Source: a candidate division WOR-3 bacterium
Lineage (GTDB): Bacteria; Hydrothermota; Tepidihabitantia; Tepidihabitantales; Tepidihabitantaceae
NCBI GenBank assembly: GCA_013177935.1
Contig: JABLXZ010000004.1
Location: 340,059 to 404,058 of the forward strand
Direction of reading: 5' to 3'
Length of the DNA: 64,000 bases
Shown: positions 9,156-47,633 of the stretch, piece by piece
How positions within the stretch are numbered: the first letter of the stretch is position 1
How the letters are laid out: every line of letters begins with the position of its first letter
Notes under the pieces: generated by a model
What the model was told of the DNA's origin: nothing
Databases searched by the model: none
The model's input: the letters and a program-made list of their open reading frames with translations, nothing else
Made by a program: the position numbers and the translations under genes

Positions 9156-9881
9156 CTAAAACCCCCTTCCCACGGTTAAACCGAAAACAGCCTGGAACGC
9201 CTCACCCCCGGCACTGCGTAAAACCCGGTCCGGCACAACGCTCAACTCAAGAAACGGTTTGATATCAAGCAATCCTTTTAATGAGTAGTTGAGCCCTGCT
9301 CCAAACTCAATTACATTCAACGCCCAGCGTGCTACCCCGTAATTTATCTCGTTGAACTGTGGTGAACCCCAGCCGCCTGCGAGGGAAAATTCTGGTGCTA
9401 ACCCCCACCCGATTTCCCGGGAAAAAGCACCTCCGACTGTCCCGAAATAACCACCTGCAGAAGGGAAAACCCCAAGATTGTGACCGCTCGTCAACTCAAA
9501 ATCAGCCAGCCCATAAGCGACATTGAGTCCCAGTTCCAGTTCTGGTTTTGTCCAATCATCAGCATAAAAATACCCGGCAGCCGAAGGTTCAAGGGAAAAT
9601 CCCAAAATCTCCTGTTGATAACTGACCGTCAGGTCCAGTTCATTCAAACCCCAGCCATCACCATTCTGTCCCAGTGTGATGTTTGCCCAGGGAGATATCG
9701 TCCAGCCCGCAAAAGAAGCCCAGACCGCAGGTTGCGCCACCGGACCCTGACTCAACCTTAACCCGCGCCACACATAGCACGAACGACCCGACAGTTCTAA
9801 CCCGGATTCAAATGGCAGCCCTGAAACAAAAACCGGAACTAAGGCAAGAAAAACAGCGAACCGCTCCCCGACCTTCGCCAT
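9156..9881 (-). CDS. Putative outer-membrane beta-barrel protein (signal peptide, C-terminal Phe), first gene of the TCS operon
   Basis: N-terminal signal-like FAVFLALVPVFVSG; alternating Gly/aromatic-rich strands; ends ...TVGRGF; directly abuts the HK gene (9155/9156). Confidence 0.45.
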   Translation of the reverse strand: MAKVGERFAVFLALVPVFVSGLPFESGLELSGRSCYVWRGLRLSQGPVAQPAVWASFAGWTISPWANITLGQNGDGWGLNELDLTVSYQQEILGFSLEPSAAGYFYADDWTKPELELGLNVAYGLADFELTSGHNLGVFPSAGGYFGTVGGAFSREIGWGLAPEFSLAGGWGSPQFNEINYGVARWALNVIEFGAGLNYSLKGLLDIKPFLELSVVPDRVLRSAGGEAFQAVFGLTVGRGF

Positions 9882-25877: not shown

Positions 25878-25964
25878 GGAGGGCTAGCCTAACTGGTAAG
25901 GCAGCAGACTTGAAATCTGCCGACCCTTCAACGGGTCTTGCGGGTTCGAATCCTGCGCCCTCCG
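25878..25964 (+). tRNA. tRNA-Ser (anticodon TGA), type II with long variable arm; no encoded CCA
   Basis: Acceptor GGAGGGC/GCCCTCC+G; anticodon stem GCAGA/TCTGC with loop CTTGAAA; T-loop TTCGAAT. Confidence 0.85.
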
Positions 25965-25980
25965 TAGTAAGGATAGAGCA

Positions 25981-26018
25981 GAAGCGCAGTAGCGGGATAG
26001 AGCAGAAGGCCAGAAGTA
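25981..26018. repeat. Two 24-nt-spaced direct repeats GGATAGAGCAGAAG between the tRNA-Ser genes (same family as the 46790-46948 array, opposite orientation)
   Basis: GGATAGAGCAGAAGCGCAGTAGCG / GGATAGAGCAGAAGGCCAGAAGTA, compared with rc of the array unit GAGAGAGCAGAAGAGCAGAAGCCG. Confidence 0.5.
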
Positions 26019-26065
26019 ATGTCCGACCGGAACGCTTTTCTGCTACTGACTTTTACGCAAATCTG

Positions 26066-26153
26066 GAGAGGTGGCCGAGCGGCTGAAGGCAACCGCTTGC
26101 TAAGCGGTTATACGGCTAACCCCGTATCAAGGGTTCGAATCCCTTCCTCTCCG
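26066..26153 (+). tRNA. tRNA-Ser (anticodon GCT), type II
   Basis: GGAGAGGTGGCCGAGCGGCTGAAGGCA D-arm typical of tRNA-Ser; anticodon loop TTGCTAA; T-loop TTCGAAT; acceptor CCTCTCC+G. Confidence 0.85.
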
Positions 26154-26239
26154 TTTAACAACGCTCCCTTTTGCCCGCTTGTGCTAAAAACAGATGGGCA
26201 GGGGAAAATAATTTGACGATAACTCAATAACATTTAACT

Positions 26240-45982: not shown

Positions 45983-46705
45983 TTAGACTCTGCCCAGCAT
46001 CCTTTGCAGCCGGAGCCGGAGCACCAAAATGAACGCCCGCCAGATGATGCGTTTTGACATCTTGGACACGCCGGCGCGGCGCTCGGTGAATACGATGGGA
46101 ATCTCTTTGATTCTGCCGCCTTTGCGCCAGATTAAGAAGTCAATCTCAATCTGAAACCCGTACCCATCCTCGCGCAACTGGTTTAAGTCTATCTTACGCA
46201 GCATATCGCACCGGTACGCCTTGAACCCGGCGGTTAAATCGCGTACCGGACAACCGGTAACCTTGCGGGCGTAAAGGCAGGCAAAGTAGGAGAGAAGGAG
46301 CCGTTTCATAGGCCAGTTGACAATGGAGATGCCATCGGAGTAACGCGAGCCAATCACCAGGTCGTAATCTTTTAATAACGCAACCATCTCCGGTATCTTT
46401 TCCGGCGGATGGGAAAAGTCCGCATCCATCTCAAAGCAGTAGTCGTAGTTGTGCTCAAGCGCATACCGGAAACCGAGCACATAGGCGGTGCCCAATCCCA
46501 GTTTCTTTTCCCGGCGAATCAGATGGACGCGCGGGTTGGTCTGCGCCATTTGGGCAACGATGTCACCGGTGCCGTCCGGCGAACCGTCGTCAATGACCAG
46601 GACCTCAATTTCGGGCAACTGGTTGAGAACTACCGGAATGATTTTGTCGATGTTGTCCGCCTCATTATAGGTCGGCATTATCACAAGTCCGCGTGGCACA
46701 GACAA
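45983..46705 (-). CDS. GT2 polyprenyl-phosphate mannosyl/glycosyl-transferase (Dpm1/PpmS-like)
   Basis: VIMPTYNEADNI...VLVIDDGSPDGT...YCFEMDADFSHPP; 240 aa. Confidence 0.75.
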   Translation of the reverse strand: MSVPRGLVIMPTYNEADNIDKIIPVVLNQLPEIEVLVIDDGSPDGTGDIVAQMAQTNPRVHLIRREKKLGLGTAYVLGFRYALEHNYDYCFEMDADFSHPPEKIPEMVALLKDYDLVIGSRYSDGISIVNWPMKRLLLSYFACLYARKVTGCPVRDLTAGFKAYRCDMLRKIDLNQLREDGYGFQIEIDFLIWRKGGRIKEIPIVFTERRAGVSKMSKRIIWRAFILVLRLRLQRMLGRV

Positions 46706-46789
46706 TAATAAAAATTACCCCCCTTTTGTCAAGGAGATTGCTTCGGGCTTTACCCGCAGGGTGCGAAGCAATCCCAACTCCTGCCCTGT

Positions 46790-46948
46790 TTCGGCTTCTG
46801 CTCTTCTGCTCTCTCCGGCTTCTGCCCTTCTACTCTACCCAACTTCTGCTCTTCTGCTCTCTCCGGCTTCTGCTCTTCTGCTCTCTCCGGCTTCTGCCCT
46901 TCTGCTCTCTTCGGCTTCTGCTCTACTGCGCTACCTAACTTCTGCTCT
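46790..46948. repeat. Tandem array of ~6.5 imperfect 24-bp repeats (CGGCTTCTGCYCTTCTRCTCTMYC) in the divergent intergenic region
   Basis: Direct reading at 46790-46948; no unique spacers, so not CRISPR; the core CTTCTGCTC is the rc of the GAGCAGAAG repeats at 25981-26018. Confidence 0.65.
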
Positions 46949-47009
46949 AAAACGCGCCCGTCTTCATTCCATTTACCACTAAGTCCTTGTATTATTTAAA
47001 CTTAGCAGT

Positions 47010-47633
47010 TTGTCGTCCTGTATTTCCTTGACATTGAAAATTTCTACTATAATCTATTTAATTGTGCTAATGCGGACTGCTTTTCTTGTTCTACTCGGCA
47101 GCGCGCTCGTTGCCGCGCAAACGGTAGCGGTGTTTGTGCCCCACGACCTGTTCCGGGACGACGAGTATGACAACATCGTTCGGGCGCTGGAGCGGGCAAA
47201 CTTTTCGGTGGCAATTGTCTCATCCGACACCACCGCCGCGCAGGGCATTGACGGCTTGCTCATCAAGCCCGAACGGCTGCTCAAAGAGATTACGCCGGAC
47301 GAGTTTGCCGCCCTAATTCTGGTCAACGGTTCCGGTATTGTCCCCTACTGGAAGGACACCGTTTTGCAGGAGCGGTGCCGGCAGTTTGCTGCTGCCGGTC
47401 GGCTTGTTGCCGCGATTGAACTGGCACCACTGGTTCTTGCCCGCGCCGGCATCCTGAACGGCAGAGCCGCCACCGTGTTTCCGCACCGTTTCACTATCAA
47501 AGTCCTCAAGGAGCACGGCGCCCGGCATAAGTTCCAGCCGGTGGTGATAGATGGCAACATCATCACCGCTGCCCGTGCCGAACACACGCCGGCTTTTGCC
47601 CGGGCGATTGTCCGAAAACTGAAAGGCAGGTAA
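47010..47633 (+). CDS. DJ-1/PfpI family protein lacking the nucleophile Cys (AIELAP instead of AICxxP)
   Basis: Signal/TM-like N-terminus; DJ-1 fold pattern LILVNGSG...AAIELAPLVLARAGIL... Confidence 0.65.
   Translation: MSSCISLTLKISTIIYLIVLMRTAFLVLLGSALVAAQTVAVFVPHDLFRDDEYDNIVRALERANFSVAIVSSDTTAAQGIDGLLIKPERLLKEITPDEFAALILVNGSGIVPYWKDTVLQERCRQFAAAGRLVAAIELAPLVLARAGILNGRAATVFPHRFTIKVLKEHGARHKFQPVVIDGNIITAARAEHTPAFARAIVRKLKGR

What the first reader, a model, noticed from the sequence alone, without database searches (positions are those of the whole stretch)
46790..46948. Six-and-a-half-unit 24-bp tandem repeat array in a divergent promoter region, related to two units between the tRNA-Ser genes
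The 46790-46948 segment is a head-to-tail array of imperfect 24-bp units (CGGCTTCTGCYCTTCTRCTCTMYC) between the start of the GT2/TPR/NTPase-TPR operon (minus) and the DJ-1 gene (plus). At 25981-26018, between the two tRNA-Ser genes, two units with the same 24-nt period occur (GGATAGAGCAGAAG...). They share ~80% identity with the reverse complement of the array unit (core GAGCAGAAG / CTTCTGCTC). So this is a dispersed 24-bp repeat family. The array is not CRISPR, because units are contiguous with no unique spacers. Plausible roles are a variable-copy-number spacer tuning divergent promoters, iterated protein-binding sites, or a remnant of a mobile or structural element.
Basis: seen in the sequence. 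Interest (0 to 1): 0.5.

Follow-up and report, generated by a model that had tools for sequence, protein, structure and literature searches.

The report
Expanded octamer-based repeat between divergent promoters
The 24-bp tandem array is real, but it is a species-specific expansion of a genus-restricted family of 8-base repeats (GNGCAGAA) that collect at gene boundaries, and it is most likely a tolerated by-product of replication slippage rather than a switch or a set of protein-binding sites.

Summary
Window 46792-46948 holds 6.5 head-to-tail 24-bp units, and two related units lie between the tRNA-Ser genes.

The 24-mer is not the basic unit. It is three octamers, CTTCTGCK-CTTCTGCT-CTMYCYRR (purine strand GNGCAGAA).

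- **Family size:** the genome has 16 tracts of at least 3 phased octamers, against 0 for six composition-matched controls.
- **Location:** tracts lie in intergenic or intercistronic spacers, or form N- or C-terminal protein tails. A pure tract has no stop codon in any of the six frames and reads (EQKSRRAE)n on the purine strand.
- **Orientation:** 15 of 16 tracts have the purine strand on the leading strand.
- **Distribution:** the family is essentially genus-restricted.
- **This locus:** the sister species has about 2 units, two other congeners have none, and both core promoters are conserved without the array. The tRNA-Ser pair is stable at 2 units in four species.
- **Other tests:** no DNA-binding domain was found in the neighbouring operon, and the array is unstructured as RNA.

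The same octamer forms dispersed arrays in several unrelated phyla, but controls do not show it is privileged.

Closest known: long simple sequence repeats (units of 5-11 nt), TAACTGA heptamer repeats, and Geobacter octanucleotide sites.

Verdict: a new member of a known but unexplained kind, of modest interest. The strain-level test for variable copy number could not be run.

The parts
46792..46948 (.). Tandem array of 6.5 composite 24-bp units (pyrimidine strand on +, purine strand on -). Units in register start at 46795, 46819, 46843, 46867, 46891 and 46915, with a partial unit from 46939. The pattern is A-B-A-A-A'-B', where A = CTTCTGCT CTTCTGCT CTCTCCGG and B = CTTCTGCC CTTCTACT CTACCCAA.
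   Evidence: 13 phased octamers at C4 386854-387005
25972..26022 (+). Two composite units in the spacer between the tRNA-Ser genes, with the purine strand on the sense strand of the tRNAs. The sequence reads GGATAGAGCAGAAGCGCAGTAGCGGGATAGAGCAGAAGGCCAGAAG. Position and number are conserved in four congeneric species.
25878..25964 (+). tRNA-Ser (anticodon tga)
26064..26154 (+). tRNA-Ser (anticodon gct)
46736..46773 (.). 38-nt palindromic element (GATTGCTTCG-N18-CGAAGCAATC) between the GT2 promoter and the array. The full hairpin occurs once in the genome. In species G003 it is split by an unrelated insertion of roughly 250 bp.
46705..46732 (-). Predicted sigma-70-type promoter of the GT2 operon (TTGACA-16-TATTAT, 11 of 12 matches). 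It is conserved in G001-G005 and lies 60 bp from the array.
45983..46680 (-). GT2 glycosyltransferase gene, first gene of the GT2 / TPR / STAND-NTPase-TPR operon. The likely start is the ATG at 46680; the longest ORF begins with TTG at 46705.
47028..47055 (+). Putative DJ-1 promoter: TTGACA at 47028-47033, a 16-nt spacer, and TAATCT at 47050-47055 (TATAAT at 47048-47053 is an alternative). The -35 box and the TAnnnT -10 box are conserved in G000-G005. It lies 80 bp from the array.
   Evidence: read from the sequence; the consensus scan did not list it
47070..47633 (+). DJ-1/PfpI family gene

Best explanation
The array is a lineage-specific expansion of a pre-existing two-unit site. It probably arose by replication slippage or unequal recombination between 24- and 48-bp higher-order units. 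The site belongs to a genus-restricted, 8-nt-phased, strand-polar simple-repeat family, (GNGCAGAA)n on the purine strand. Members of the family survive only where they do little harm. A pure tract has no stop codon in any of the six frames. On the purine strand it encodes a hydrophilic peptide, (EQKSRRAE)n, and it cannot fold on itself. Tracts are therefore tolerated in spacers, just upstream of ribosome-binding sites, and as N- or C-terminal protein tails. The array studied here lies upstream of both divergent core promoters. Those promoters are conserved in relatives that lack the array, so it is most likely neutral. At most it alters the spacing or local DNA topology between the two promoters. 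Shown: the anatomy, the size of the family, its positions and strand bias, the copy-number differences between species, and the absence of RNA structure. Inferred: slippage as the mechanism, neutrality, and survival of tolerated insertions as the reason for the positional bias.
For: 1. The array and its 48-bp higher-order period are real.
2. There are 16 tracts of at least 3 phased octamers, against 0 for six composition-matched controls, and 81 tracts of at least 2 against 20-38.
3. This is the only octamer family in the genome, and the array is its largest short-unit tandem repeat.
4. At this locus G000 has 6.5 units, G003 about 2, and G001, G002, G004 and G005 none, while both promoters are conserved. 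The gap between the two -35 boxes grows from about 75 bp in G005 to about 190 bp in G001 and G002, 296 bp in G000 and about 460 bp in G003 (approximate figures that I counted from the printed sequences). This spacer therefore tolerates insertions.
5. Pure tracts are stop-free in all six frames.
6. Where tracts are readable as coding, the length differences from relatives are multiples of 3: +36 nt, +90 nt and 0.
7. 15 of the 16 tracts with at least 3 octamers are intergenic or lie at an ORF end.
8. 15 of 16 tracts have the purine strand on the leading strand, compared with 63% of single octamers.
9. The motif is present in 3 of 4 congeners and in 1 of the 26 more distant relatives searched.
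10. The array RNA is unstructured, with z = -1.7 and -1.1 for the two strands.
11. No DNA-binding domain was found in the adjacent STAND-TPR protein.
Against: - Plain slippage does not explain how one octamer reached more than 15 loci.
- Tracts at different loci share the same variant order (GAGCAGAA-GAGCAGAA-GCGCAGAA-GAGSAGRGG at C2 346.0k and 355k, and at the 350k site of G003). Two loci also share a segment of about 60 nt made of a hairpin plus octamers. This points to copying between loci or to selection on the sequence.
- The tRNA-Ser pair has kept two units in four species, which is not typical of an unstable repeat.
- Many tracts sit immediately 5' of Shine-Dalgarno sequences in core energy-metabolism operons, as a functional translation-initiation element would.
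- No data within a species were available, so instability itself is not shown.
Confidence: 0.58

Rival explanations
1. The octamer tracts are cis-acting sites for a factor that reads single-stranded nucleic acid in 8-nt register. Candidates are a ribosome-associated protein, or a protein of the S1, cold-shock or Hfq type. The tracts would then form a post-transcriptional network, or act as unstructured ribosome standby sites that raise translation initiation. On this view the array is an amplified member of that set.
For: - Tracts lie directly 5' of SD-ATG in Hdr/Mvh-type operons with the purine strand as sense, for example ...GAGCAGAAGAGCAGAAGCGCAGAAGAGGAGGGGCGA-ATG.
- Sense orientation is also kept in the tRNA-Ser spacer, the one tract on the lagging strand.
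- The same variant order recurs at several loci.
- An 8-nt period suits single-strand binding better than binding on one face of duplex DNA (inference).
- TAACTGA repeats show the same geometry, and a role in translational regulation was proposed for them (PMC4679880).
Against: - Orthologous junctions in congeners lack the tract and keep an ordinary SD sequence (the 346.0k site in G001 and G002), so the tract is dispensable.
- The array itself lies upstream of both conserved promoters and is probably not transcribed.
- Several tracts are more simply read as translated tails.
- No binding factor has been identified.
Confidence: 0.22
2. The array is a contingency locus. Changes in unit number alter the spacing between the divergent GT2-TPR-STAND and DJ-1 promoters, or the binding of an upstream activator, and so switch or grade their expression.
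For: Unit number differs between species at this locus. The array lies between two divergent promoters, next to a glycosyltransferase operon. From general knowledge, simple repeats upstream of a -35 box modulate expression in some pathogens, for example nadA in Neisseria.
Against: - The array is 60 and 80 bp outside the two -35 boxes. It is not between -35 and -10, and it is not inside an ORF.
- Changes in steps of 24 bp (2.3 helical turns) give no clean on/off phasing.
- Units are imperfect (82-85% matches), which lowers the slippage rate.
- The same spacer in G003 holds an unrelated insertion, so it looks like a neutral site where insertions accumulate.
- No variation within a species could be tested.
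Confidence: 0.1
3. The array is the remnant of a mobile or structural element, such as a MITE or REP-like unit, or plasmid or phage iterons.
For: A palindromic element abuts the array at 46736-46773. Two other tracts flank a G-rich hairpin, and octamer units are interleaved with degenerate CRISPR repeats at the end of contig C4.
Against: - The palindromes are low-copy and are not consistently linked to octamer tracts.
- There are no terminal inverted repeats or target-site duplications around the array.
- No rep, transposase or integrase gene is adjacent.
- GC skew runs unbroken through the window, so this is not a replication origin.
- GT2 and DJ-1 are adjacent in all relatives examined.
Confidence: 0.05

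Closest known systems
TAACTGA heptamer direct repeats of marine Beggiatoaceae, some Cyanobacteria and Bacteroidetes (MacGregor 2015, PMC4679880)
   Same: One specific short unit occurs in short direct-repeat sets at many loci. [quoted passage not shown] The phylogenetic distribution is sporadic across phyla, and neither a spreading mechanism nor a function is known. TGATAAC arrays even flank the octamer arrays in two Chloroflexi loci fetched here (L032 and L037).
   Different: The unit here is 8 nt, purine-rich and stop-free in all frames, whereas TAACTGA contains stop codons. There are far fewer loci, about 16 against 169. A composite 24-nt form exists. The array studied lies upstream of promoters, not next to a start codon.
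Tandem octanucleotide and heptanucleotide multicopy sites of Geobacter metallireducens (Aklujkar et al. 2009, PMC2700814)
   Same: Dozens of intergenic sites each hold about four tandem octamers (GTTGCTYN), often paired on opposite strands, and the sites are specific to one species of a genus. The authors guessed they were regulator-binding sites but did not test this. Paired inverted octamer arrays are also seen here, in the foreign Nitrospirota and Elusimicrobia loci and at the CRISPR end of contig C4.
   Different: The unit sequence differs. In G000 most tracts are single rather than paired. Here many overlap the ends of ORFs.
Long simple sequence repeats with 5-11-nt units (Mrazek et al. 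2007, as summarised in PMC4679880). Cyanobacterial STRR heptamers are a further example, cited from my own knowledge.
   Same: Head-to-tail repeats of a 7-8-nt unit occur in sporadically distributed genomes and are attributed to polymerase slippage. They are mostly non-coding, because the unit length is not a multiple of three.
   Different: Genomes rich in such repeats carry many different units: 84 distinct 7-8-mers in the 60 foreign loci. G000 has essentially one. Here three octamers form a 24-nt unit that keeps the reading frame.
Phase-variable promoter-region repeats of host-adapted pathogens (for example Moraxella uspA2 AGAT repeats, cited in PMC4679880; Haemophilus hmw 7-bp repeats, PMC8262952)
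   Same: A tandem repeat in a promoter or leader region whose copy number differs between lineages.
   Different: Those repeats are perfect, have short units, lie between the promoter and the start codon, and have been shown to change expression. This array is imperfect and lies outside both core promoters, and no variation within a species is known.

Membership tests
Long simple sequence repeat (tandem repeat with a 5-11-nt unit) | Head-to-tail copies of one short unit, longer than chance would give | tested here: met
   Runs of 8-nt period with up to 5 perfect or near-perfect octamers (C2 350212). There are 16 tracts of at least 3 phased octamers against 0 in six controls. The array itself holds 13 phased octamers.
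Long simple sequence repeat (tandem repeat with a 5-11-nt unit) | Copy number differs between related genomes at orthologous sites | tested here: met
   GT2/DJ-1 spacer: 6.5, about 2, and 0 units. C2 346.0k: +36 nt. C2 350k: +90 nt. The tRNA-Ser site, however, is stable at 2 units. Only differences between species were tested.
TAACTGA-type start-codon-proximal direct repeats | Most sets lie in forward orientation within a few nucleotides upstream of a start codon | tested here: inconclusive
   This holds for C2 346.0k, 346.9k, 355k and 363k, and for C4 230k. However, several of these are equally readable as N-terminal coding sequence. The array studied and the tRNA-Ser pair are not next to a start codon.
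TAACTGA-type start-codon-proximal direct repeats | The unit sequence is TAACTGA | tested here: not met
   The unit here is GNGCAGAA / CTTCTGCN. This is an analogue, not a member.
CRISPR array | Repeats separated by unique spacers of similar length | tested here: not met
   The units are contiguous. A genuine CRISPR array with a 37-nt repeat exists elsewhere on the contig for comparison.
Phase-variable contingency locus | The repeat lies within an ORF, or between the -35 and -10 boxes or between promoter and start codon, so that unit changes switch expression | tested here: not met
   The array lies 60 bp and 80 bp upstream of the two -35 hexamers and in no plausible ORF.
Phase-variable contingency locus | Length polymorphism within a population or species | not testable with these tools
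Iterons or iterated operator for a DNA-binding regulator | A cognate DNA-binding or Rep protein encoded nearby, with repeat spacing in helical phase | tested here: not met
   Pfam finds GT2, TPR, nSTAND_NTPase5+TPR, DJ-1, Dtd and YicC, and no HTH or Rep domain. Periods of 8 and 24 bp correspond to 0.76 and 2.3 helical turns. The first 125 residues or so of the STAND protein match no Pfam family, so a novel domain cannot be excluded.
MITE or REP-like mobile element | Defined ends with inverted repeats, and multiple near-identical full-length copies | tested here: not met
   No full-length copies exist. The adjacent palindromes are low-copy and not linked to the tracts.
Structured non-coding RNA | A stable or conserved secondary structure, or a match to an Rfam family | tested here: not met
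   Rfam at gathering threshold reports only the tRNAs in 25000-48000. Folding z-scores are -1.7 and -1.1.

The most novel reading that the evidence does not exclude
GNGCAGAA tracts are recognition sites, in 8-nt register, for a nucleic-acid-binding factor that has not been identified. The same system, or the factor itself, would have moved between or arisen repeatedly in at least five phyla, where (CTTCTGCT)n also forms dispersed multi-locus families. In this genus it would link the Hdr/Mvh energy-metabolism operons, a tRNA-Ser pair, the end of a CRISPR array and the GT2-TPR-STAND operon into one post-transcriptional or chromosome-level network.
Probability: 0.1. Interest if true: 0.7.

Novelty: new member of a known kind. 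Interest (0 to 1): 0.33.

Why it matters
Dispersed families of one specific 7-8-nt tandem unit have been reported several times (cyanobacterial STRR, TAACTGA, Geobacter octanucleotides) and have never been explained. This small genome carries a single clean family of about 16 tracts. It also has close relatives that differ site by site, which makes it a convenient case for asking how such units spread and whether they do anything. Two observations give concrete hypotheses to test. The unit has no stop codon in any of the six frames, and the tracts are strongly polarised with respect to replication. These suggest survival of harmless insertions plus strand-asymmetric slippage. For annotation there is a practical point. 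These tracts artificially extend ORFs and blur the choice of start codon in core operons such as the HdrA-like and FrhB-like genes. If the array is simply neutral, it is an ordinary variable repeat and useful at most as a strain marker.

Tried and rejected
- **CRISPR:** rejected, because there are no spacers.
- **Structured RNA or riboswitch:** rejected.
- **Small ORF across the array:** the plus-strand ORFs 46693-46938 and 46761-46982 would give a hydrophobic repeat (SALLL...). I saw no ribosome-binding site in the sequence, and the array they cross is absent in G001 and G002. The minus strand carries TAG in the third octamer of several units. Rejected.
- **Replication origin or iterons:** GC skew does not turn within contig C4, and there is no Rep gene or recognisable DnaA context.
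- **Genomic-island border at tRNA-Leu:** GT2 and DJ-1 are adjacent in every relative examined, so the block is not a recent insertion.
- **Operator for the neighbouring STAND-TPR protein:** no DNA-binding domain was detected.
- **Is CTTCTGCT a privileged octamer across bacteria?** The genome-collection scan found 60 stretches in many phyla. Those genomes, however, carry many other 7-8-mer units. In viral contigs the target gave 2 stretches, its reverse 0 and a permuted octamer 4. There is therefore no evidence that it is special.
- **Link between the octamers and adjacent palindromes:** not systematic.
- **Strain-level copy-number test:** the metagenome scan anchored on the conserved DJ-1 promoter found nothing.
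- **Literature search on the bare octamer strings:** returned only primer noise.

Full report
**1.

Tandem Repeats Finder reports a 24-bp period at 46792-46948 with 6.5 copies, 82% matches and score 181. It also reports a 48-bp higher-order period with score 231. The core 18-mer, with up to 3 mismatches, occurs six times in register in the array and twice on the opposite strand at 25975-26016. That is eight hits against 0.02 expected from shuffles. The second site lies between tRNA-Ser(tga) and tRNA-Ser(gct). On the minus strand there is a GT2 glycosyltransferase, then a 20-repeat TPR protein, then a STAND-NTPase protein with 24 TPR repeats. On the plus strand there is DJ-1/PfpI, followed by D-Tyr-tRNA deacylase and a YicC-like protein.

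**2. The real unit is an octamer**

Searching the whole 1.96-Mb genome (5 contigs; the window is C4:340059-404058) showed overlapping hits offset by 8 bp. The 24-mer is CTTCTGCK-CTTCTGCT-CTMYCYRR. On the purine strand every octamer keeps the form GNGCAGAA, or a weaker form, GNNNGRTA or GCCGGAGA. A census of phased octamers found 16 tracts with at least three units, against 0 for each of six reversed or permuted control octamers. With at least two units the counts were 81 against 20-38. TRF over the whole genome shows that this is the only octamer family present, and that the array is the largest short-unit tandem repeat.

**3. Where the tracts lie**

Seven of the 16 tracts lie within 20 kb of contig C2, inside operons for MvhD/FlpD, HdrA-, HdrB- and HdrC-like proteins, FrhB-like proteins and other Fe-S or flavoproteins. 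They fill the junctions between genes. The other tracts are:
- the tRNA-Ser spacer;
- a divergent intergenic region at C1 615.7k;
- the start of a Rossmann-fold gene at C1 635.3k;
- the start of a membrane-protein gene at C3 16.8k;
- a gene junction at C4 230.4k;
- one tract inside an E/K-rich linker of a 564-aa protein (C2 254.5k);
- a weak match in a signal peptide (C2 84.7k);
- the array itself.

Shorter two-octamer tracts of the same kind lie at the C4 219.3k and 223.1k gene junctions.

A pure octamer tract has no stop codon in any of the six frames. The purine strand reads (EQKSRRAE)n and the pyrimidine strand (LLLFCSSA)n. Several tracts can therefore be read in frame as protein tails:
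- MIEQKSRSAEEQRG-MTAGNPYK
- MSTEEQKSRSAEEEGR-MIIRPYK, with a good SD sequence before the first ATG
- MAKAQKSRRAE-IRVLVVGYGKVG
- the C-terminal tails ...AEAQKSRGTEVK* and ...EEEHRSAEEHKEV*

Where a tract is readable as coding, its length difference from congeners is a multiple of three: +36 nt, +90 nt and 0. The composite 24-nt form contains TAG on the purine strand and is found only in non-coding places. I cannot decide from sequence alone whether the N-terminal tails are translated or are 5' leaders.

**4. Orientation**

GC skew is very strong, about ±0.15. The purine strand lies on the leading strand in 15 of 16 tracts with at least 3 octamers, and in 53 of 65 two-octamer tracts. For single exact octamers the figure is 63%, and for control octamers 51-65%. 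Only 57% of genes are co-oriented with replication. The purine strand is also the sense strand of the adjacent gene in almost every unambiguous case. The one tract on the lagging strand, the tRNA-Ser spacer, keeps sense orientation. Because seven tracts sit in one co-oriented operon block, I cannot separate the replication bias from the transcription bias.

**5. Comparison with relatives**

The double octamer occurs in 3 of 4 congeners and in 1 of the 26 more distant relatives searched. The control pattern gave zero.

At the GT2/DJ-1 spacer the picture is as follows:

| Genome | Units at this locus | Approx. distance between the two -35 boxes |
|---|---|---|
| G000 | 6.5 | 296 bp |
| G003 (sister species, 86-93% identical flanks) | about 2, plus an unrelated insertion of roughly 250 bp | about 460 bp |
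| G001, G002 | none | about 190 bp |
| G004 | none | not measured |
| G005 | none | about 75 bp |

Both core promoters are conserved throughout: TTGACA-16-TATTAT for GT2, and TTGACA-16-TAnnnT for DJ-1. The distances are approximate and I counted them from the sequences printed. This spacer therefore accumulates insertions, and the array is not needed for either promoter.

In contrast, the two units in the tRNA-Ser spacer are present in the same place and number in G000, G003, G001 and G002. They are absent in G004 and G005. Their divergence is about the same as that of the flanking sequence.

Inside the Hdr-type operons, the alignments between species break exactly at the tracts. The C2 346.0k junction is an ordinary 34-nt SD spacer in G001 and G002, a purine-rich 40-mer in G003, and a perfect four-octamer tract in G000. 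Other sites carry octamers in G001 and G002 but not in G000. The family is therefore turning over site by site within the genus.

**6. Signs of copying between loci**

Three tracts share the same order of variants, GAGCAGAA-GAGCAGAA-GCGCAGAA-GAGSAGRGG. Two loci 7 kb apart share a segment of about 60 nt made of a G-rich hairpin flanked by octamers. Independent slippage would not produce this. Ectopic recombination between tracts, or selection on the sequence, would.

**7. Tests of the functional ideas**

- Both strands of the array are essentially unstructured as RNA, with z = -1.7 and -1.1, and Rfam reports only the tRNAs.
- No DNA-binding domain was found in the STAND-TPR protein. Its first 125 residues or so match no Pfam family.
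- Periods of 8 and 24 bp correspond to 0.76 and 2.3 helical turns, which would not place repeated sites on one face of duplex DNA (inference).
- The array lies 60 and 80 bp outside the two -35 hexamers, so the classical phase-variation geometries are not met.
- The adjacent 38-nt palindrome (46736-46773) and the other palindromes next to tracts are low-copy and are not systematically linked to the octamers.

**8. The same octamer elsewhere**

An exact scan of one genome per prokaryotic species found CTTCTGCTCTTCTGCTCT-N6-CTTCTGC in 60 stretches. By my own estimate, chance would give about 0.001. The hits came from Nitrospirota, Thermodesulfovibrionales, an Alphaproteobacterium, Planctomycetes, Chloroflexi, Elusimicrobia, Gemmatimonadales, Paenibacillus, Kribbella and others.

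Most of these are pure (CTTCTGCT)4-17 arrays. Some have a composite form like the one here, for example cttctgctcttctgctCTATTGCTcttctgctCTAT. Many face an inverted purine-type array.

Five of these genomes were searched whole. They hold from one to about 20 loci each, and the reversed control gave zero. The count of about 20 loci rests on genome G033, which the tool flags as unpublished.

These genomes were chosen because they have the motif. They also carry many other 7-8-mer units: 84 distinct units in 60 loci. In viral contigs the target gave 2 stretches, its reverse 0 and a permuted octamer 4. I therefore do not claim that this octamer is privileged. What the data do show is that a given unit tends to form a multi-locus family within a genome.

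In the foreign loci 38 of 59 arrays are purine-sense, and 28 of 59 lie within 60 nt of an ORF boundary. This rests on crude ORF calls.

**9. What is known**

- MacGregor 2015 (PMC4679880) described TAACTGA heptamer direct repeats. There were 169 sets in one Beggiatoaceae genome, mostly in forward orientation just upstream of start codons, with some inside ORFs. They are scattered across Cyanobacteria and Bacteroidetes, with no known spreading mechanism, and translational regulation was proposed but not tested.
- Aklujkar 2009 (PMC2700814) listed 48 sites of four tandem octanucleotides in Geobacter metallireducens, as well as heptamer sites. These were guessed to be regulator-binding sites.
- Mrazek 2007, as summarised in PMC4679880, defined long simple sequence repeats with 5-11-nt units and attributed them to polymerase slippage.

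The present family belongs to this known but unexplained kind.

**10. Verdict**

The array is real and is part of a real family. The most economical account is a species-specific expansion of a two-unit seed, in a spacer that tolerates insertions. The family members persist where a stop-free, unstructured, hydrophilic-coding sequence does no harm (confidence about 0.58).

The main rival is an RNA-level or single-strand-binding role of the tracts at translation-initiation regions (about 0.22). It fits the intercistronic members better than it fits this array. A contingency-locus role (about 0.10) and a mobile-element remnant (about 0.05) are less likely.

Not shown: length variation within a species, transcription of the array, translation of the tails, or any binding factor.

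Noticed in passing
Genome contig C4 428460-429666 (outside the window; locus L090 2460-3666): A CRISPR array with the 37-nt repeat GTTTCAATCCTTGTTTTAGTGGATACATCATCATAAC, at least 17 copies, running off the contig end. At its inner end two degenerate repeats are interleaved with octamer-family units (L090 2237-2426). The reverse complement of the repeat ends in ATTGAAAC, so this is probably the trailer end.
   Followed up: partly
Genome contig C2 350195-350400 (locus L087 about 9195-9400): Compared with three congeners, the start of the HdrA-like gene in G000 has gained 90 nt. The gain consists of extra octamers, a G-rich hairpin (CCCTCTCCCACAAGGGGCGAGGG) and a perfect 28-nt palindrome (GTACGGGCAATTCATGAATTGCCCGTAC). 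All of it is in frame with the conserved ALVVGAGIAGIQ motif, so the true start codon of this core gene is uncertain.
   Followed up: partly
Genome contigs C4 162389 and 324406, and C1 519347 and 623440 (all outside the window): A second small dispersed repeat: perfect (GAGTA)5-6 pentamer arrays at four loci.
   Followed up: no
window 46736-46773: A 38-nt palindrome (GATTGCTTCG-N18-CGAAGCAATC) lies between the GT2 promoter and the array. The arm CGAAGCAATC occurs 9 times in the genome. In species G003 the palindrome is split by an insertion of roughly 250 bp made of AT-rich units of about 70 bp (CAATGAAAAACC...GTCATAA).
   Followed up: partly
Foreign loci L043 and L051 (two Nitrospirae MAGs): A four-octamer array sits in frame at the same position in the N-terminal region (...EDGKI-[EQKSRRAEEQKK]...) of what looks like the same amidohydrolase or dihydroorotase-like gene in two different genomes. 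The gene identity was judged by eye and was not tested.
   Followed up: no
window 47028-47072: The DJ-1 gene appears to have a very short leader. The conserved TTGACA-16-TAATCT promoter ends about 15 nt before the ATG at 47070, and no Shine-Dalgarno sequence is visible. The GT2 leader also lacks an SD sequence.
   Followed up: no
whole genome: GC skew is unusually strong, about ±0.15 in 20-kb bins, with clean switches at about C1 330 kb and C2 180 kb. Only 57% of genes are co-oriented with replication.
   Followed up: partly
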